DNA of 64,000 nt, taken from positions 25,914 to 89,913 of IMG/VR virus record IMGVR_UViG_3300019458_000191, one strand, 5' to 3'. The DNA is from a virus. Under the pieces are notes generated by a model. It searched no databases and was not told where the DNA came from. It saw only the letters and a program-made list of their open reading frames with translations. How positions within the stretch are numbered: position 1 is the stretch's first letter; the number at the start of each line of letters is the position of its first letter. Positions 541 through 35,026 of the stretch are shown piece after piece. The position numbers and the translations under genes are program-made.

Positions 541-1167
541 ATGAAAGCAATAGCCGCAATGACATTGGATAGAGCCATTGGACACGATGGAAAATTGCCT
601 TGGCCAACATTAAAAGAAGATTTTCATTTCTTTAAAGGAATGACCAAAGGAAAGAAATTAGTGATGGGATCAAGGACATATAATTCTCTTCCTCAACCAT
701 TCTTAAAAGATAGAGAAATATACTCTATATCACGTAATAGAGTTCATGAATACACATCTGAATATCCTAATGCAAATTGTAAAGTTCATCACAAATCTTT
801 TCGTGATGATATTCCAAAGAACTTTCCTTTACAAGGCGAAGATGTATGGTTATGTGGCGGTGCAGAAATGTATAGAACATTTCTTCCATTGTGTAGTGAT
901 TTATATTTAACAATTGTGTTAGACCCATACGAAGGGGATGTATTCATGCCGGAATTTGATCATCTATTTTCGGAACAAAGATTAATTAAGGAATATAGAG
1001 ATATGTGGATAGTCCACTATTGGAATAGAACCTCATTGGTTCGTGAAACATATAGAGATGGATTCGATGCAAAATTAATAGGAAAGGTGGTTCAAAATCC
1101 AAATGAGAATCCGTCTTTAAGAAATGAATGGGATTTAGGATACAATAATGCACCGACGTTATTATGA
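541..1167 (+). CDS. frd: Dihydrofolate reductase with C-terminal Rmf-like extension
   Basis: DHFR motifs IAAM..IG..GKLPW, D..FFK.MT, VMGSRTY.SL and GGAEMY, plus about 45 extra C-terminal residues. Confidence 0.93.
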   Translation: MKAIAAMTLDRAIGHDGKLPWPTLKEDFHFFKGMTKGKKLVMGSRTYNSLPQPFLKDREIYSISRNRVHEYTSEYPNANCKVHHKSFRDDIPKNFPLQGEDVWLCGGAEMYRTFLPLCSDLYLTIVLDPYEGDVFMPEFDHLFSEQRLIKEYRDMWIVHYWNRTSLVRETYRDGFDAKLIGKVVQNPNENPSLRNEWDLGYNNAPTLL

Positions 1168-1529
1168 CCGACTTTCCCATAACAAATGAAGAGTTTGAGG
1201 CCCATCCTTGGAAAACAACCGAAATAGGAGAATACAAAGTTGATTACTATATATTACATACTTTTACTGATAGCAATTTGTATATCCGTATCACTCTTAA
1301 AGACCCTTCTTTTCATTCTTTCAGCCAGTCGGAAGCCATGGCAGAAGTTTTCAAAGTTAAAAATTATTTGTGTAATGAAGGATTTTTGGATGAAGAGATG
1401 GAAGGAACTAATTTTCCCGACGCCAATATAATAATTTATTCTATATTTGTTTATACAAAGAATAACGTCATAAAAGAAAATGTGTGGGATAAATTTTATG
1501 ATTGGTTAAAGAAAAAACTTTACGAATAA
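1164..1529 (+). CDS. Hypothetical protein
   Basis: ATGA overlap with the DHFR stop; fills the gap before thyA. Confidence 0.7.
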   Translation: MTDFPITNEEFEAHPWKTTEIGEYKVDYYILHTFTDSNLYIRITLKDPSFHSFSQSEAMAEVFKVKNYLCNEGFLDEEMEGTNFPDANIIIYSIFVYTKNNVIKENVWDKFYDWLKKKLYE

Positions 1530-1534
1530 AAAAG

Positions 1535-2620
1535 ATGAATATGAATAAAGTCGATGCAGAATATAATAGATTGGTAGAATTGGTTTTAAACGAAGGTAAA
1601 TTAAAGAAAAATAGAACGGGTATTGATACCATAGGTGTATTTGGTGCTCAATCTAAGTTTGATATTAATCTGGATGCATTTCCAATATTGACCACCAAAA
1701 AAGTATTCTTTAAAGGAATCGTTCATGAACTTTTATGGTTCATTAGTGGTGATAATAACATAAAATATTTAGTGGATAATAACGTTCACATTTGGGATGA
1801 ATGGGCATACGTAAAATTCCAAAAAGATAGTTGGTTGGGAAACAAGGAATATAGACATGAATTTCAAACTCAAGAAAAATTCATTCAGCGAATAAAGGAT
1901 TTGGATAAAGATGATTGGTTTGTTAAAAAATTCGGAGACTTAGGCGTGGGAACATACGGTGGAATGTGGAGAGATTTTCCTTATAGTGATTATTTTCAAG
2001 GAGCAGACTTGTCAGTTGAACTAGAATCAAGAGGCATAGACCAATTACAAAAAGTATTAAACAGTCTAAAATATAATCCGGATGATAGAAGAATGATTGT
2101 CAATTCGTGGCACCCATATTGGGTGGATAAATGTGCGTTGCCTCCGTGTCATTGTTTATTTCATTTTAATACAGAAGAATTGACTCACCAAGAAATGATA
2201 GATGAAGCCTTAAAGATATACATTAATGGTGACAAAGAATACCTCAACGGGTTATCATACAAACAATGTATCGATGATGCTTATATTCCTAAAAGAAGAT
2301 TGAATTGTTTGCTATATCAACGTTCGGCTGACTTGGGTTTAGGTATTCCTTTTAATATCACTTCTTATTGTTTATTGACAGCGATGATTGCTCACTGTGT
2401 AAGAATGGTGTCAGGAACATTTACACATACGTATGGAGACTTACATATTTATAAAAATCATATACCTTTTCTTTCTAAACAGATAACCAATTCTGGATAT
2501 GATTTACCACGTTTACGTATAAACACCAGCAGAAGAAATTTATTTGACTTGGTTTATGAAGACATTCAATTGGAAAATTATGTTTCTCAACCAACAATAA
2601 AGATGGACATCGCAGTATAA
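1535..2620 (+). CDS. thyA: Thymidylate synthase
   Basis: Motifs RTG, FPILTTKK, ELLWF, PDDRR, LPPCH, YQRSAD.LG.PFN and GDLHIY. Confidence 0.97.
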   Translation: MNMNKVDAEYNRLVELVLNEGKLKKNRTGIDTIGVFGAQSKFDINLDAFPILTTKKVFFKGIVHELLWFISGDNNIKYLVDNNVHIWDEWAYVKFQKDSWLGNKEYRHEFQTQEKFIQRIKDLDKDDWFVKKFGDLGVGTYGGMWRDFPYSDYFQGADLSVELESRGIDQLQKVLNSLKYNPDDRRMIVNSWHPYWVDKCALPPCHCLFHFNTEELTHQEMIDEALKIYINGDKEYLNGLSYKQCIDDAYIPKRRLNCLLYQRSADLGLGIPFNITSYCLLTAMIAHCVRMVSGTFTHTYGDLHIYKNHIPFLSKQITNSGYDLPRLRINTSRRNLFDLVYEDIQLENYVSQPTIKMDIAV

Positions 2621-2681
2621 ATAAGTGTAATTAATAAAAACAAAATACGTGGTTGTGGAACCCCGTAGATACTTATTATTA

Positions 2682-3830
2682 ATGGAGTCGGCAAATATGA
2701 AAAAAATGAAAAAAGACCTCTTCAAATGCTTAAATAAGTTTAAGACCTTCTTACATCCCCTTCTCAAAAAAACCGAACGATACGAAAGACAAATAGTTGC
2801 ATCCCTTCTTATTTTAGTTTTGTCTCTATCTTATCTTTTCTTCTTTGGTGAACCAATGCCTTCCAAAAAATCCGTATTAAAAAAATTAGATAATGTAACA
2901 GTTTTAGTGGAAGTAAAAGGCGGAAGCGGAACAGGAACTTTATTTTCAAGAAAGGATGATAAAGGAAATTTAGTACATTTTGTTTGGACATCAGGTCACG
3001 TTATTGATGATGCAATGATTGGTCCTGATGAAAATATGAACGTTTCATTCTCTGACATTAAAATATCAAAGATGAATTTAGTAGGTGATGCAATGTTAGA
3101 GAAAATTTCTTACTCAGCCAAAGTAATAAAGTTTAGTGGAATAAAAGGCGACGATTTGGCTTTATTGGAATTAGTCGATAAAAATATATTTGTAGAAGAT
3201 GACAGTGTGGAATTTGCTTCTCCGATTTTAGTTGTTCCGGGAACATCTTTATATCATGTAGGATGTATGTATGGTTCTTCTGGATACAATTCCGTATCAG
3301 AAGGAATGTTAGCAAATAATGGTAGAATGATATACGGAAAAGTTTTTGACCAATCATCAACAACTGTTTTTCCGGGTTCATCGGGCGGCGGCATATTCAA
3401 TGAACGTGGTGAATATGTTGGAATGATTACAATGATGCGTGAAGCCAATATGAATTATTTTATTCCCGTTCGTAGAATGATGGTTTGGGCTCAAGATAAT
3501 CATTTGGAATGGGCGTTGAATAGAGACATTAGAATGCCGCGGGAGTGGGTAAGGCACAATCAAATGAAAGACGCTGAATTGGATTCCGAGTTAGAAAGAT
3601 TTCAATATTTTTCATTTAAACAGTGGAAAAAACAGCAAGATAAACAAAAAGATTTATCAGATCAAATTTCTAAATTAAAAGAAAATTTGGACTCCTTGAG
3701 AAAGGAATTAGGAAGAACGAATATCATTCATCAAGCTAAACCTACAAATTCCGTTCCATCTTTGAGATTCCATTTTTTTGGTCCTAACGATGAAGAAGAG
3801 GATAGTGATTACGACTGTGGCAGACATTGA
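2682..3830 (+). CDS. Membrane-anchored trypsin-like serine protease with C-terminal coiled coil
   Basis: N-terminal hydrophobic helix; catalytic triad motifs TSGHV, DLALL and PGSSGGG. The start position is uncertain. Confidence 0.85.
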   Translation: MESANMKKMKKDLFKCLNKFKTFLHPLLKKTERYERQIVASLLILVLSLSYLFFFGEPMPSKKSVLKKLDNVTVLVEVKGGSGTGTLFSRKDDKGNLVHFVWTSGHVIDDAMIGPDENMNVSFSDIKISKMNLVGDAMLEKISYSAKVIKFSGIKGDDLALLELVDKNIFVEDDSVEFASPILVVPGTSLYHVGCMYGSSGYNSVSEGMLANNGRMIYGKVFDQSSTTVFPGSSGGGIFNERGEYVGMITMMREANMNYFIPVRRMMVWAQDNHLEWALNRDIRMPREWVRHNQMKDAELDSELERFQYFSFKQWKKQQDKQKDLSDQISKLKENLDSLRKELGRTNIIHQAKPTNSVPSLRFHFFGPNDEEEDSDYDCGRH

Positions 3831-3859
3831 TTTTTAGAATCTAACTAATAAATACCTCA

Positions 3860-3894
3860 CCCCCGTAGAATGGATTTCTACGGGGGTTTTGTTT
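3860..3894 (+). terminator. Rho-independent terminator
   Basis: CCCCCGTAGAA-TGGAT-TTCTACGGGGG stem-loop followed by TTTTGTTT. Confidence 0.85.
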
Positions 3895-3921
3895 GACAGT
3901 GAATAGAGAGTATGTTATATT
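3893..3921 (+). promoter_or_regulatory. Sigma70-type early promoter, probably leaderless
   Basis: TTGACA-17 nt-TATATT with TG extension; the ATG lies 6 nt downstream. Confidence 0.8.
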
Positions 3922-3927
3922 ACAATC

Positions 3928-4380
3928 ATGAACGATTACGTACTTTACATTTTAATGAGGAACGACCTTCCTAGTATGAATGTGGGTAGAGCCGCAGCAC
4001 AAGCATCTCACGCGTCTAATGCCTTTATTCATTCTTTTGGTAAACGAAATGATGTCAAAAAGTGGCAAAAACAAACATCACAAGGATTCGGAACGGCTAT
4101 CGTATTGTCAGCCGACAAAAAAACAATTCAATTCACCATAGATAATATTAATAAATGCAAAGATTGTCCGATTTCTTGGGTCACTGACCCTGAATACGGT
4201 ATGCCTGTAACAAAAGAAATATGGGAACATATTTCAATAGAATTACAGTCTGCTCAGCCCGTTGTTAAAGAAGATGGAATGGTGGTTTGGTTTAGAAAAG
4301 AAGATACTTGTGCATATATCTTTGGTAGTAAAGAAGACCTATTACCATTCTTAGGAGAACTACCATTATGGCCAAATTAA
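3928..4380 (+). CDS. Peptidyl-tRNA hydrolase, Pth2-like
   Basis: YILMRNDL.SM..GRAAAQASHA matches the PTH2 N-terminal signature. Confidence 0.8.
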   Translation: MNDYVLYILMRNDLPSMNVGRAAAQASHASNAFIHSFGKRNDVKKWQKQTSQGFGTAIVLSADKKTIQFTIDNINKCKDCPISWVTDPEYGMPVTKEIWEHISIELQSAQPVVKEDGMVVWFRKEDTCAYIFGSKEDLLPFLGELPLWPN

Positions 4381-32395: not shown

Positions 32396-32590
32396 TTACA
32401 TAAAAGAACACAATAAACAAAGTAAAGGTTTTTTATAATACCACCTTCTTTTTAATAATTTATCTCTTTCCGGATTATTTTTTACCCAATGTTTATCTCT
32501 ACATCTCGTAGAACAAAATTTCTTATTAGGATGTTTTGTAGATAGTAAAAAATCAGAATTACAAAATAAACATTTAACTAATGTCTCCAT
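32396..32590 (-). CDS. Small Zn-finger protein, possibly a truncated homing endonuclease
   Basis: CLFC...KFCSTRC followed by CLLC and an early stop; very AT-rich. Confidence 0.5.
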   Translation of the reverse strand: METLVKCLFCNSDFLLSTKHPNKKFCSTRCRDKHWVKNNPERDKLLKRRWYYKKPLLCLLCSFM

Positions 32591-32864
32591 TTTCCTTTAT
32601 CTTCTCGTTTTCGTAATCCGAAACAGGTCTTCTATATAATTCCAATTTTATACACTCTAATACACCAATTAAATCATTAGCAGTCTGATATCCGCGTTGA
32701 AGATTCAAAATTCTATTACAAACCGTTGATATGACGTAATTTATTTCTCCCACCGAATATAATGGTTTGCGTTCATCAAAAAGATTTTCCTCTGTGAGTT
32801 TTCGAACAATAGTATCTATTAATTCGTCGTATTTCTTTCGGTCTTCTGGTTTAATATAAGGCAT
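32574..32864 (-). CDS. DUF6899-like phage protein
   Basis: Motifs MPYIK..R, GE.NY.I and G.LEC.KLELYRR....YE..K..ENGD. Confidence 0.8.
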   Translation of the reverse strand: MPYIKPEDRKKYDELIDTIVRKLTEENLFDERKPLYSVGEINYVISTVCNRILNLQRGYQTANDLIGVLECIKLELYRRPVSDYENEKIKENGDIS

Positions 32865-32865
32865 A

Positions 32866-33207
32866 TTATTCGAAACTTTTACATTTGAGTTGAATTACGG
32901 TGACAGTAGAAGTCAAATCCAAATCAGGATAATAATCTCTCAATCCTTCAAATAAATCCGTTCTCGACACAAACCCATCTTTTATATATTCGTCTTCGGT
33001 TATGTCATTGAGTGTAGTATGACGAACGTTGACTACTTCTGCTTCCATGCACCAATTTACATCGGGACAAGCCAAAATAACTTTACCGGGTTTATAATCT
33101 CTATGACCTTCTCGAATTGTGATAGTTTTTTCTCCACTCATTGCTACATCTATAAGAGATTCTGACAGGAGAAGACATTGTAAAGGTTTTTTTAATTTAG
33201 ACTCCAT
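32866..33207 (-). CDS. ASCH domain protein
   Basis: Motifs GEKTITIR and DGF...L..YYP.....VTVI. Confidence 0.85.
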   Translation of the reverse strand: MESKLKKPLQCLLLSESLIDVAMSGEKTITIREGHRDYKPGKVILACPDVNWCMEAEVVNVRHTTLNDITEDEYIKDGFVSRTDLFEGLRDYYPDLDLTSTVTVIQLKCKSFE

Positions 33208-33385
33208 AATTTATTTTAACTAAATATTTTTTTGTTATTGATTGAGAATGAGCCAGAGAAACTTCAGCAACAGGAGTTCCCGGAGGATAAATAGTTTCGA
33301 TGGTAACTGGTCCCTTTTCTTTAACAAGAGTTAACAATCCATTGATTATTTCCTCAGACGTATCAAATGATAATGTCTCACTCAT
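33197..33385 (-). CDS. Hypothetical protein
   Basis: Overlaps both neighbours in the operon. Confidence 0.55.
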   Translation of the reverse strand: MSETLSFDTSEEIINGLLTLVKEKGPVTIETIYPPGTPVAEVSLAHSQSITKKYLVKINYGV

Positions 33386-33720
33386 ACTGGTTCCATGTAT
33401 TCTACAGGTATTCCAAATTCTGTAGCAATCTTTATTTCAGCATTGACTCCGGTTGATTCCTTATATCCATCAACCATCAAAACTATAAGTTTTTGACAAC
33501 GAGCAATCATTGCCACATCGAATGCTTTCCAGAATTCCCAATGACCTGGCAAACTTGCATCAACCGACATTGGATGACATTGAGAAATAGGAGCAAAAAC
33601 AAAATGACCTTCACACATCAATTTTGAAGCTGCTCTATTTGATGCATGAAATCTTTCTTCTTGAACAGATTTATCTTTATGAGAATACGGACAGGCTAAA
33701 TATATGAGGGAATTATTCAT
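33382..33720 (-). CDS. DUF1937 / nucleoside 2-deoxyribosyltransferase-like protein
   Basis: Motifs IYLACPYS, FAPI..H, W..FD and S.GV.AEI..A. Confidence 0.85.
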   Translation of the reverse strand: MNNSLIYLACPYSHKDKSVQEERFHASNRAASKLMCEGHFVFAPISQCHPMSVDASLPGHWEFWKAFDVAMIARCQKLIVLMVDGYKESTGVNAEIKIATEFGIPVEYMEPV

Positions 33721-33721
33721 A

Positions 33722-34114
33722 TCAATTCGAATTAGGATTTAATGCTCCTGTTAAATGAATAAGTTCCACCGAATTATATGGTTGAACTATTAAATTAATG
33801 GCCAATGTTGCTGGCTCCAAAAAATATACATGTGTTCGATATGATTGTATTATTTTCATATCTTCGAGTGTCAGTAATTCTTTATCGATATTTGATGACA
33901 CTTTAGTTCGTGTTTCAGAATTCATCGGTTCAAATGCCGATGCACGTAACTCTCTATCAATTAATTCTTTCAAAGTCTTAACAAGAACACTATTTTCATA
34001 CCTTGAAAGAGTGTCTGATTTTTCCGTTGTATTATTTGACCAAGAAGGTCTTGGAATCCAAGCAAACAAACAAGTCAAAAATGATGCTTTAGTAAAAAAT
34101 TGTCTTCTATTCAT
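33722..34114 (-). CDS. Tat-signal protein with stand-alone tail-sheath C-terminal-like domain
   Basis: MNRRQFF twin-arginine leader; FEP.N..TR..V...I...L..L....I..Y and I..IVQP..SVE.I.L; AAGGAGG RBS. Confidence 0.7.
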   Translation of the reverse strand: MNRRQFFTKASFLTCLFAWIPRPSWSNNTTEKSDTLSRYENSVLVKTLKELIDRELRASAFEPMNSETRTKVSSNIDKELLTLEDMKIIQSYRTHVYFLEPATLAINLIVQPYNSVELIHLTGALNPNSN

Positions 34115-34275
34115 TGTTGACCTCCTTCAAAGCAAGTTCATACATGTTCATTAGTGTAGAGCTTAATGTTTCGCCTCCATGAAAGACTTCTAATTTTTTG
34201 TAAAGATTCAAGGTCGATTCTTGATTTTGCTTCTTTTCCATTCTTTCTAACTATTATTTCAACTTCATTTTTCAT
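34107..34275 (-). pseudogene. Small ORF with a frameshift in an A6 run; the corrected product resembles a T4 gp23 segment
   Basis: As read it stops at 34138. Removing one A at 34194-34199 gives ...EAKSRIDLESLQKLEVFHG...EVNNE*, overlapping the next ATG. Confidence 0.5.
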
Positions 34276-34279
34276 AATT

Positions 34280-35026
34280 TTATCGTAATTCAGGTTTCAA
34301 AAGTTTCCAACGGTCGCTGTTAATTCTTACAATATTATCATCGATGTTTTCTACCATCGTCATGACTTCTTCAACGTTATTGTAGATGTATTTATGAGGA
34401 ACAGCACCCATTATCCACAATGGAGTCTTTTTCTTACCACCTTCAATAGAAAGGAACAAAGGTTTCTTTTCACGAATGACAGTGGTTATTTCTTCGGCAC
34501 TTCCCCACGATGCTTTCTCTGGAATGATATGAGCTATAAAGAAATCACAAATATCACACAATCTTAAATCATGAGAACGAACCTGCCACATTCTCTGTTG
34601 AACCAAATCATATTGTTCTGTTTCCATCCAGTGATGCATTTCATCTCGTGACCTTTCATCTTCTGGAATTTCATTAATGAATGGTTTGTGATATGGGTCG
34701 AAAAAGGTAATATTCCTATTGGCGAGCCTCTGTTTTATAACATCTCTCCATCCCCGGCCGTCTGAATATTGCATGTGACCAATCAGATAACAGCGAGTTC
34801 TAAACAAAACGTTTTCTTTTGTTTTAACAGATGATTGTTGGTCTTCTGCATTACCAAACAATAATTTTTTGTGTTCATTTTCCATAGGAATTTTATAATT
34901 CTGGTTTTTAATAACCCGGCAACCTTCTTCTTCTAAAGAACGAATCCGAATGTCAAACCACTCTCCGGTGGCATCATTTCGTTGTAACCACCAAGGCGGA
35001 TCACCGGCTGACAGTTTTGTTGACAT
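34280..35026 (-). CDS. Nucleoside 2-deoxyribosyltransferase-like protein
   Basis: Motifs YLIG.M....GWR, FDP, DL...D.CD and GSAEE. The true start may be internal. Confidence 0.8.
   Translation of the reverse strand: MSTKLSAGDPPWWLQRNDATGEWFDIRIRSLEEEGCRVIKNQNYKIPMENEHKKLLFGNAEDQQSSVKTKENVLFRTRCYLIGHMQYSDGRGWRDVIKQRLANRNITFFDPYHKPFINEIPEDERSRDEMHHWMETEQYDLVQQRMWQVRSHDLRLCDICDFFIAHIIPEKASWGSAEEITTVIREKKPLFLSIEGGKKKTPLWIMGAVPHKYIYNNVEEVMTMVENIDDNIVRINSDRWKLLKPELR

What the first reader, a model, noticed from the sequence alone, without database searches (positions are those of the whole stretch)
33722..34114. Tat export signal fused to a stand-alone tail-sheath C-terminal domain
Seen: a 130-aa ORF with a strong AAGGAGG RBS begins MNRRQFF plus a hydrophobic stretch. 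It continues with ~85 aa reading LIDRELRASAFEPMNSETRTKVSSNIDKELLTLEDMKIIQSY...LAINLIVQPYNSVELIHL. Established: S/N-R-R-x-F-F/L is the twin-arginine motif. The FEPN...L..L...G.I..F...I.I.V.P....E.I pattern marks the C-terminal polymerisation domain of contractile sheaths (T4 gp18, T6SS TssC, eCIS). Inference: the gene sits among nucleotide-metabolism genes, far from any tail operon, so it is not the virion sheath. It may be an exported or membrane-tethered sheath mimic acting as a decoy, a superinfection-exclusion factor, or a poison of host or competitor contractile systems. I do not know of a described protein with this architecture.
Basis: partly seen in the sequence, partly recalled or inferred. 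Interest (0 to 1): 0.85.

Follow-up and report, generated by a model that had tools for sequence, protein, structure and literature searches.

The report
Exported stand-alone tail-sheath domain protein
A large uncultured phage from a cave carries a small accessory gene that joins a bacterial export signal to the inner core domain of a phage tail sheath, a rare and apparently undescribed design that a few other big phages share and whose job is still untested.

Summary
Window 33722-34114, minus strand, is a 130-aa ORF with a perfect AAGGAGG 6 nt before its ATG.

**Sheath domain.** Residues 25-129 are a very diverged tail-sheath C-terminal domain (CTD).
- Pfam and phmmer miss it.
- A custom profile of 86 sheath C-termini scores it 22.2 bits, against at most 9.9 in 5000 shuffles.
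- The ESM Atlas's own model matches Phage_sheath_1C clusters at TM 0.71-0.72.

**Leader.** Residues 1-26 look like a twin-arginine signal. It is supported by motif and base rates only. No Tat profile reports it.

**Relatives.**
- None of 80 related replication loci carries the gene.
- No leader of this form was found in the 28 related records searched whole.
- A degenerate DNA pattern found four other 122-137-aa phage ORFs with the same design. All four pass Pfam's PF17482 cut-off.

This scan had noted the same design before on other DNA (e1-5754555, e1-5411941). I confirmed recurrence, but not their counts.

**Reading.** Function is untested. My best guess is an exported binder of incoming contractile-tail parts, acting like T4 Spackle or Imm. 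A poison of cytoplasmic sheaths does not fit the topology. I found no paper describing the design. Interest 0.6.

The parts
34121..34127 (-). Shine-Dalgarno AAGGAGG, 6 nt (TCAACA) upstream of the ATG
   Evidence: Read. Only 2 copies in the window against 5.4 expected. 0 of 59 ORFs of 150 aa or more have AGGAGG upstream.
33722..34114 (-). 130-aa ORF (P0001) including its stop. It is translationally coupled: its ATG overlaps the stop of the upstream 44-aa ORF by 8 nt.
   Evidence: Codon score is 0.188, against 0.291 +/- 0.068 for 45 long ORFs. The sequence is identical in contigs of two cave-metagenome runs.
34037..34114 (-). Residues 1-26, a signal-peptide-like leader: n-region MNRRQFFTK, h-region of 12 residues, c-region RPSWS
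   Evidence: Base rates. K:R at positions 2-10 of 59 proteins is 66:12. No Tat profile hit.
34094..34108 (-). Twin-arginine motif, residues 3-7 (R-R-Q-F-F)
   Evidence: The same register as the RR-x-F-[FLI] leaders of the four look-alikes.
33728..34042 (-). Residues 25-129, a diverged tail-sheath C-terminal domain (two long helices plus three strands). It lacks a 7-residue insert and about 12 terminal residues present in the compared sheaths.
   Evidence: BLASTP to phiXF1 sheath residues 404-516 of 529. PF17482 spans 412-509 in a 95%-identical sheath. Custom profiles, ESM Atlas, alignment, alignment-informed AF2 model.
34107..34275 (-). Two overlapping small ORFs (44 and 45 aa) directly upstream. 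The 44-aa frame ends inside the P0001 start.
   Evidence: No family hit for the 44-aa ORF. No indel in either run. No sheath-like signal in any frame.
33382..33720 (-). Downstream neighbour, DUF1937 / nucleoside 2-deoxyribosyltransferase-like. It starts 2 nt after the P0001 stop.

Best explanation
P0001 is an expressed accessory gene of a roughly 340-kb T4-superfamily myophage. It is the most diverged known member of a small class of phage proteins of 122-137 aa. Each is built from a cleavable twin-arginine-type signal peptide of about 25 aa followed directly by a stand-alone tail-sheath C-terminal domain (CTD).

Shown:
- the ORF and its ribosome-binding site;
- homology of residues 25-129 to sheath CTDs;
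- absence of the rest of a sheath;
- the rarity of such leaders in this phage group;
- four natural look-alikes with Pfam-certified CTDs.

Inferred:
- The leader sends the folded domain across the cytoplasmic membrane. I put export of some kind at about 0.8 and Tat specifically at about 0.55.
- In real sheaths this domain is the platform that holds neighbouring subunits' terminal strands.
- The inner sheath domain also contacts the tube. I have not placed the pyocin tube-contact helix within the PF17482 part.
- In the periplasm the free domain would bind a part of an incoming contractile tail that becomes exposed there, most plausibly the tube surface vacated by the contracted sheath.
- That would block or sense secondary infection, as the small exported early T4 proteins Spackle (binds gp5 lysozyme) and Imm (binds the tape measure) do.

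The confidence given is for the whole statement including function. For the architecture alone I put about 0.8.
For: ORF and RBS.

Sheath homology:
- The only tblastn hit in 50,697 phage records is the C-terminus of an annotated tail sheath.
- Pairwise E is 7e-9 to phiXF1 and 2e-4 to Mel-JY01, both collinear to the sheath's end.
- Custom profiles give 22.2 and 17.5 bits, with 0 of 5000 shuffles as high.
- hhalign gives E 1.2e-3 in the same register.
- The ESM Atlas single-sequence model matches PF17482 clusters at TM 0.72, 0.71 and 0.64.

Leader: base rates are 2 of 708 and 1 of 7569 M-starts. Arginine is rare at N-termini here, 12 R against 66 K. The c-region carries a basic residue and a small-x-small site.

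Class:
- 2 of 2 IMG/VR pattern hits are RR-leader plus CTD ORFs.
- So are 4 of 22 metagenome pattern hits, two of them the same contigs as the IMG/VR hits.
- 0 of 12 hits in prokaryote genomes are.
- 4 of 4 pass the PF17482 cut-off, with the domain starting at residues 28-37.
- A 4-row family profile aligns P0001 from residue 1 at 29.3 bits, against 13.6 for the best of 5000 shuffles.

Setting: one look-alike sits among T4-type early genes (Alt-like, gp59, gp32). P0001 sits in a variable insert of the replication module.

Analogues: Spackle (PMC7677548, passages). Imm-TMP (preprint 10.64898/2026.03.06.709160, abstract only). CTD as binding platform (PMC10457771, passages). Sheath domain I helix contacts the tube electrostatically in R-type pyocin (PMC6088184, passage).
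Against: - P0001 itself reaches no curated threshold. There is no PF17482, PF10518 or TIGR01409 hit at E up to 10.
- Only 13 of 59 highly conserved sheath-CTD columns are identical.
- Its uncharged h-region has 12 residues. As I recall, TATFIND asks for 13.
- TIGR01409 is sub-threshold even in the look-alikes: 13.6 and 13.4 bits against a cut-off of 16.7, in 2 of 5.
- The gene is absent from 80 related replication loci.
- 28 related records searched whole have no leader of the form M-x-R-R-x-F.
- The wider searches found no sequence relative.
- Its branch is very long, 6.28 against a median of 0.38, which fits decay as well as a new function.
- Its codon score is 1.5 sd below the mean.
- The family profile score is partly circular, because the search pattern was designed from P0001's own motifs.
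- One origin for the five is neither shown nor rejected (p-AU 0.263).
- No binding, localisation or phenotype has been tested. The tube-binding step is pure inference.
Confidence: 0.35

Rival explanations
1. Exported or membrane-associated protein whose sheath-derived fold has been reused for something unrelated to tails. Examples are binding a host envelope component, or acting as a periplasmic sensor that delays lysis on superinfection, as T4 RI does.
For: The evidence for export is the same as above. The Tat-CTD rows all sit on long branches (0.9-6.3 against a median of 0.38), as expected after a change of partner. P0001 has lost most sheath hallmark motifs. RI is a small exported T4 protein with a cleavable signal (PMC8385771, listing and abstract only).
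Against: Four of five members keep enough sheath signature to pass Pfam, which suggests that sheath-type contacts still matter. No holin or lysis genes lie next to P0001.
Confidence: 0.22
2. Decaying or neutral ORFan: a captured 3' fragment of a foreign sheath gene that happens to be open, with no selected function in this phage.
For: No homologue at E <= 0.001 in 1.84 billion representatives. Absent from relatives. Longest branch in the tree. Low-normal codon score. It resembles phiXF1-type sheaths more than the sheaths of its own lineage: the own-lineage profile gives 5.8 bits, inside the shuffle range.
Against: The frame is intact and spans exactly leader plus one whole domain. It has a perfect, otherwise rare SD at the right spacing. 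Spacing with its neighbours is coupled. An RR leader is improbable by chance. The same two-part design occurs in four other phages.
Confidence: 0.15
3. Cytoplasmic tail-assembly factor: a gp25-like sheath initiator, cap or regulator. On this reading the N-terminus is not an export signal.
For: gp25-type initiators are 117-132 aa and share the sheath-CTD fold (PMC10457771). T4 gp25 is among the top Foldseek hits (5iv5_BD, 5iw9). Baseplate-wedge proteins appear in the BFVD hits. In the 543-kb contig the look-alike lies 4.2 kb from a GPW_gp25 gene.
Against: No PF04965 hit. Sequence similarity is to sheath CTDs, not to gp25. The N-terminus has the full n/h/c layout of a signal peptide in all five members. 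P0001 and the 6.4-kb look-alike lie among early or replication genes. That same 543-kb contig already has an ordinary gp25.
Confidence: 0.1
4. One reading: a mimic that caps or poisons host T6SS, tailocin or competitor phage sheaths during their assembly.
For: The domain keeps the platform part of the sheath but lacks the N-terminal arm and about 12 C-terminal residues. In principle it could accept strands without passing them on.
Against: Those sheaths assemble in the cytoplasm, while the protein carries an export leader. The phage's own lineage has 782-803-aa sheaths that it would also meet there.
Confidence: 0.05

Closest known systems
Contractile tail sheath proteins (Pfam PF04984 + PF17482; T4 gp18, Xanthomonas phage phiXF1 sheath, Microcystis phage Mel-JY01 sheath)
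   Same: Residues 25-129 align collinearly with the last ~110 residues of these sheaths, from the W of the WG..T motif to the C-terminus. Predicted secondary structure is two long helices plus strands, as described for the CTD (PMC10457771).
   Different: It has no N-terminal arm, no PF04984 domain and no surface domains. It lacks a 7-residue insert and the last ~12 residues. It carries a signal-peptide-like leader. It is not in a tail operon. It falls below Pfam's threshold.
RR-leader + Phage_sheath_1C proteins of uncultured phages found here (L210 131 aa, L217 135 aa, L214 137 aa, L221 122 aa); the same design is noted in scan findings e1-5754555 and e1-5411941
   Same: Same size. Same order: leader of about 25 aa with RR-x-F-[FLI], then the CTD starting at its first helix. 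Non-tail gene context in two of them. The profile aligns P0001 from residue 1.
   Different: The four pass PF17482 at 27.6-60.6 bits and P0001 does not. P0001 has a shorter h-region and a far longer branch. Common descent is not shown. I found no paper describing this class.
gp25 / TssE / gpW / Mu gp46 sheath initiators (PF04965, PF07409)
   Same: Stand-alone proteins of about 120-130 aa with the sheath-CTD fold that hold sheath terminal strands (PMC10457771). Structural hits (GP46 cluster, TM 0.60).
   Different: They are cytoplasmic baseplate parts without leaders, encoded in tail modules. P0001 has no sequence match to them.
T4 Spackle (gp61.3) and Imm, superinfection-exclusion proteins
   Same: Works-like analogy only. 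They are small products of early genes that leave the cytoplasm and bind a tail part of the incoming phage (PMC7677548; preprint abstract).
   Different: No sequence or fold relation. Spackle is a helical bundle. Neither is derived from a virion protein. No function has been tested for P0001.
T4 Cd.3 / DUF7355 (PF24051)
   Same: A small early-region protein of T4-like phages that appears among the BFVD structural neighbours of the model.
   Different: No leader, no PF24051 hit for P0001, weak structural scores, function unknown.

Membership tests
Phage_sheath_1C (PF17482) domain | Score at or above Pfam's gathering cut-off (26.9 bits) | tested here: not met
   No hit at E <= 10. The genome search with PF17482 finds nothing in the own record.
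Phage_sheath_1C (PF17482) domain | Significant collinear similarity to bona fide sheath C-termini | tested here: met
   Custom profiles give 22.2 and 17.5 bits, with 0 of 5000 shuffles as high. Pairwise E is 7e-9 and 2e-4. The matched region equals PF17482 in a certified sheath.
Phage_sheath_1C (PF17482) domain | CTD fold (two long helices and an antiparallel sheet) | tested here: met
   The ESM Atlas single-sequence model matches PF17482 clusters at TM 0.72 and 0.71. The alignment-informed AF2 model (biased) has pLDDT 76.8, with sheaths at the top of the Foldseek list. The single-sequence AF2 model was unusable, pLDDT 42.
Full tail sheath protein | N-terminal arm plus PF04984 domain upstream of the CTD | tested here: not met
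   The ORF starts 24 residues before the CTD. A full-length sheath profile finds no other piece in any frame of the 89.9-kb record.
Twin-arginine (Tat) signal peptide | Polar-R-R-x-hydrophobic-hydrophobic motif near the N-terminus | tested here: met
   N-R-R-Q-F-F-T-K at residues 2-9. This is rare here.
Twin-arginine (Tat) signal peptide | Uncharged h-region and a signal-peptidase site | tested here: inconclusive
   There are 12 uncharged residues (mean Kyte-Doolittle 1.65), then R-P-S-W-S. The length is at or below what Tat predictors ask for, as I recall. No SignalP or TatP tool was available.
Twin-arginine (Tat) signal peptide | Match to curated Tat profiles (TIGR01409, PF10518) | tested here: not met
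   No hit at E <= 10. Two look-alikes reach 13.4-13.6 bits, below the 16.7 cut-off.
Twin-arginine (Tat) signal peptide | Tat-dependent export | not testable with these tools
   Needs reporter fusions in tat+ and tat- hosts. The host is unknown (cave metagenome).
   Alignments. The profile scores 29.3 bits against 13.6 for the best shuffle. This is partly circular, because the pattern was derived from P0001.
   The tree is star-like. One clade is not rejected (p-AU 0.263) and not recovered.
GPW_gp25 sheath initiator (PF04965) | Profile match and baseplate gene context | tested here: not met
   No Pfam hit. The neighbours are replication and nucleotide genes. There is only fold-level resemblance.
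DUF7355 / T4 Cd.3 (PF24051) | Profile match | tested here: not met
   No hit for P0001. T4 Cd.3 itself scores 112 bits.

The most novel reading that the evidence does not exclude
Large myophages have repeatedly detached the inner 'platform' domain of a tail sheath, put a Tat leader on it, and express it from early or accessory regions as a periplasmic immunity factor. This factor would coat the tube, or another exposed part, of incoming contractile tails, whether phage or tailocin. It would be a third route of entry blocking beside Spackle and Imm, and a case of a virion building block turned into an anti-virion decoy.
Probability: 0.2. Interest if true: 0.8.

Novelty: new variant of a known kind. 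Interest (0 to 1): 0.6.

Why it matters
If the reading holds, it adds a new way for phages to guard an infected cell: exporting a copy of their own kind of tail part to intercept rivals.

It would also give a compact natural binder for contractile-tail components. That could be useful for studying genome delivery, tailocins and injection systems.

It would show that the Tat pathway, which carries folded proteins, is used by lytic jumbo phages for accessory proteins. A related phage carries a different small ORF with a textbook RR leader.

Even if the function differs, the class is a clean example of domain detachment and relocalisation of a structural virion protein. It is directly testable with simple export and plating assays.

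For this particular gene the caveat is that it is the most eroded member, and it may be on its way out.

Tried and rejected
**Searches that found nothing for P0001**
- PHROGs.
- PDB sequence search: only an irrelevant hit at E 0.52.
- Word-indexed homologue search: self only.
- phmmer against 1.84 billion representatives: self plus P0002. P0002 is a repeat protein whose score comes from a 22-residue repeat, and I rejected it as spurious.
- IMG/VR and metagenome scans with P0001 peptides.
- IMG/VR scan with alignment A3.

**Structure and length checks**
- Single-sequence AF2 gave pLDDT 42 and was not used.
- Search for short sheath-C proteins with A3: 4617 hits. The best 120 are fragments of ordinary sheaths. 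0 of 120 have an RR motif, 90 start with M, and the 40 M-starts printed read as internal sheath sequence. This says nothing about real stand-alone forms.

**Origin from the phage's own sheath**
- The record holds no sheath.
- A profile of 8 own-lineage CTDs scores P0001 at 5.8 bits, within shuffles.
- A recent copy of its own sheath is therefore not supported. The profile is narrow, so an old copy is not excluded.

**Relatives**
- 80 clamp-loader loci hold no sheath-like or P0001-like ORF. The best values were 8.8 bits and E 0.25.
- Of 45 handles sent, 29 were searched and 16 were not held. 7 of the 29 have a full sheath and none has a short one.
- The RR-start pattern in 28 records gave 6 matches against 5 in the reversed control. 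I translated two and both are closed frames. Read from the matched strings, two of the other four hit a stop and two encode S-R or S-S rather than RR.
- The 155-aa RR-leader ORF of L084 is not sheath-like.

**Other checks**
- Promoter and terminator scan: nothing above chance.
- Shifted pattern with RR one residue later: 0 hits in IMG/VR.
- Sequencing runs: no RNA holder is listed. Two DNA runs of a cave metagenome hold the stretch identically and may be its source.
- Complex prediction was not used. No cognate tube or partner of this phage is at hand, and a stand-in pair was judged unlikely to be informative.
- Supplementary files of papers were not consulted.
Full report
**1. What is there**

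On the minus strand, 33722..34114 encodes 130 aa (P0001) beginning MNRRQFF. A perfect AAGGAGG sits at 34121-34127, 6 nt before the ATG.

This site is unusual for the genome.
- The heptamer occurs twice in the window, against 5.4 expected.
- None of 59 ORFs of 150 aa or more has AGGAGG upstream, and 49 of 59 have no SD-like tetramer.

The ATG overlaps the stop of a 44-aa upstream ORF, and the next gene starts 2 nt after the stop. Codon usage is within the range of the long ORFs but low: 0.188 against 0.291 +/- 0.068.

**2. Where the window comes from**

- The window is bases 25914-89913 of an 89,913-base virus record estimated to be 26% complete.
- The identical protein is also on record on a 340,916-base contig.
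- The DNA is held, without any difference, by contigs of two cave-metagenome runs that may be its source.
- PolB is 42.6% identical to that of Microcystis phage Mel-JY01, and otherwise resembles T4-like phages.
- Of 29 clamp-loader relatives that could be searched, 7 have sheaths with open frames of 782-803 aa. All 4 relatives that are at least 90% complete are among the 7.
- The phage is therefore very probably a large myovirus whose own sheath lies outside this fragment.

**3. The C-terminal part**

Standard profiles are blind to it, and so is phmmer against 1.84 billion representatives. Several other lines agree, though.

Sequence:
- The single tblastn hit among 50,697 phage records (E 0.03) falls on the last 113 residues of the annotated tail sheath of Xanthomonas phage phiXF1. 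The pairwise E is 7e-9.
- In a 95%-identical sheath, Pfam places PF04984 at 237-408 and PF17482 at 412-509. P0001 residues 25-129 therefore cover one whole Phage_sheath_1C domain, starting at the domain boundary.

Profiles:
- I built a profile from 86 sheath C-termini: 80 IMG/VR loci plus six relatives. P0001 scores 22.2 bits. The best of 5000 shuffles scores 9.9, and no other of 146 window ORFs scores.
- With the six phiXF1-like rows removed, the score is 17.5 against 8.7.
- hhalign agrees in register (E 1.2e-3, probability 19.5%).
- The Mel-JY01 sheath aligns end to end (E 2e-4).

Structure:
- The ESM Atlas holds its own single-sequence model of this protein (pTM 0.53). Its nearest structures are clusters carrying PF17482, at TM 0.72, 0.71 and 0.64, and a Mu GP46 cluster at 0.60.
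- An AF2 model made with the sheath alignment (pLDDT 76.8, not independent) shows two long helices and three strands. The XM1 paper describes the CTD in these terms (PMC10457771).
- Foldseek ranks sheaths and T4 gp25 first for this model, at E 0.008-0.07.

Degree of divergence:
- Only 13 of 59 highly conserved columns are identical.
- A 7-residue insert and about 12 terminal residues are missing.

**4. The N-terminal part**

Residues 2-9 read N-R-R-Q-F-F-T-K. Then come 12 uncharged, mostly aromatic or aliphatic residues, then R-P-S-W-S. This is the n/h/c layout of a signal peptide, with the twin-arginine consensus and a basic c-region.

Controls:
- The loose filter (RR, x, two hydrophobic residues, then 12 uncharged hydrophobic residues) passes 2 of 708 M-starts in the record. 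One is P0001 and the other is a 61-aa frame I did not examine.
- It passes 1 of 7569 M-starts in 1.13 Mb of related phage loci.
- Lysine outnumbers arginine 66 to 12 at positions 2-10 of the window's 59 long ORFs.

Against:
- No hit to PF10518 or TIGR01409.
- The h-region is short.
- No signal-peptide predictor was available.

I conclude that export is likely, and that Tat is the more likely route but is unproven.

**5. Conservation and origin**

- None of 5043 ORFs in 80 related replication loci resembles P0001 or a sheath CTD.
- In relative L083, the nucleoside-deoxyribosyltransferase-like gene is followed directly by the DUF6899-like gene. I judged that likeness by eye. In the window, about 1.4 kb holding six listed ORFs, P0001 among them, lies between the two.
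- A profile of own-lineage sheath CTDs does not recognise P0001: 5.8 bits, within the shuffle range.
- Together with the atypical SD, this points to an accessory gene acquired or remodelled from a different, simpler sheath lineage. It does not look like a recent copy of the phage's own sheath.

**6. The design recurs**

Two earlier notes of this scan (e1-5754555, e1-5411941) describe Tat-leader plus sheath-domain genes in other phages. I treated them as a lead.

I wrote a degenerate DNA pattern: M-x-R-R-x-F, then 50-60 codons, then F-E-x-N-x3-T-R.

| Collection | Pattern matches | RR-leader + CTD ORFs |
|---|---|---|
| IMG/VR viral contigs | 2 | 2 |
| Metagenome contigs | 22 | 4 (two are the same contigs as the IMG/VR hits) |
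| 596 Gb of prokaryote genomes | 12 | 0 |

- That gives four distinct ORFs of 122, 131, 135 and 137 aa.
- All four pass Pfam's PF17482 cut-off, at 30.8, 30.4, 27.6 and 60.6 bits. The domain starts at residues 28-37.
- All four have a hydrophobic core. Read by eye, all have a small-x-small site near residues 25-27.
- These features, and the sheath motifs outside the pattern, were not asked for by the pattern.
- TIGR01409 is sub-threshold in two of them.
- Their clusters have 1-3 members and no names. One of the four sequences is not on record at all.

Context:
- One lies between Alt-like, VWA and SPFH genes and gp59 and gp32.
- One lies in a 543-kb contig between baseplate genes and a PseT-like kinase.
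- One lies near a fused cytidylyltransferase / 2-hydroxyacid dehydrogenase gene.

Relationships:
- Their nearest relatives are full-length sheaths of 566-1170 aa, with up to 41% identity.
- A four-row profile aligns P0001 from residue 1 at 29.3 bits, against 13.6 for the best shuffle. This is partly circular.
- The tree is unresolved. All five have long branches. One origin is neither rejected (p-AU 0.263) nor shown.

**7. Mechanism**

In real sheaths the CTD is the platform onto which the N- and C-terminal strands of two neighbouring subunits dock (PMC10457771). In R-type pyocin, a helix of the inner sheath domain makes the electrostatic contact with the tube (PMC6088184). I have not shown that this helix lies in the PF17482 part.

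An exported copy cannot meet assembling sheaths or T6SS, because these are cytoplasmic. It also cannot meet the sheath of an adsorbed phage, which stays outside the envelope. What does enter the periplasm is the tube with its tip.

T4 already blocks entry with two small products that leave the cytoplasm.
- Spackle is an early-gene product that binds the gp5 lysozyme (PMC7677548).
- Imm binds the tape measure (preprint abstract).

My best guess is that the class works like these, through a sheath-derived binding surface. The steps from export onwards are inference. The mature domain is acidic, pI 5.3, which I do not interpret.

**8. Verdict**

- The sheath-domain reading is supported.
- The Tat reading is supported at motif level only.
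- The poison reading is disfavoured by topology.
- The exclusion reading is open.
- Five literature searches surfaced no paper describing the architecture (and, on another point, 72). These searched the held library only, and no supplements were seen.
- P0001 is the most eroded of five natural examples, which tempers its own weight.

Noticed in passing
L084:7043-7510 (+), IMG/VR contig of 59,021 bases related through the deoxyribosyltransferase-like gene: A 155-aa ORF begins with a textbook RR leader (MNRRDFIK plus an Ala/Val/Leu core). Its mature part is unrelated to P0001 and to sheaths. It has weak Tat profile hits: PF10518 at E 0.35, and TIGR02811 at 16.5 bits, below the cut-off.
   Followed up: partly
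window 34107-34275 (-): Two overlapping small ORFs (44 and 45 aa) lie in different frames just upstream of P0001. Another first-reader note (e1-6129902) proposes an A6 frameshift. Contigs of two runs show no indel there, and no family or sheath signal was found.
   Followed up: partly
window, all ORFs of 150 aa or more: Shine-Dalgarno sites are scarce. 49 of 59 long ORFs have no SD-like tetramer in -20..-3, and none has AGGAGG. This hints at a host with weak SD use and makes the P0001 site stand out.
   Followed up: partly
window 32574-35026 versus L083:3995-4819: In a relative, the deoxyribosyltransferase-like gene is followed at once by the DUF6899-like gene. The window has about 1.4 kb in between, holding the small ORFs, P0001, DUF1937, a 62-aa ORF and ASCH. 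This looks like a variable accessory islet. The likeness of the DUF6899 genes was judged by eye only.
   Followed up: partly
L178:9335-9610 (-), phage T4 gene cd.3: T4 Cd.3 (DUF7355, PF24051, 112 bits) and other small early proteins of T4-like phages appear among the BFVD structural neighbours of the sheath-CTD-like model, beside gp25-type proteins. They may be an unrecognised fold relation.
   Followed up: partly
G001 (202,882 bases, 91% complete), the record of L083: No sheath was detectable with PF17482, with the Mel-JY01 sheath or with alignment A3, although the record is nearly complete. Either its sheath is very diverged or it is not a myovirus.
   Followed up: no
window 34460-34700, run X2 record 3: A second contig of 5,899 bases in one cave run carries a diverged copy of part of the deoxyribosyltransferase-like gene (6-7 differences per ~50 bases). 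A related phage therefore shares the habitat.
   Followed up: no
L191:355-756 and 756-4166 (+), 543,035-base contig: In the megaphage contig, the RR-leader sheath-domain gene lies just downstream of a GPW_gp25 gene and a 1136-aa ORF, and just upstream of a PseT-like kinase/phosphatase. This is a different setting from the replication-module position of P0001.
   Followed up: partly
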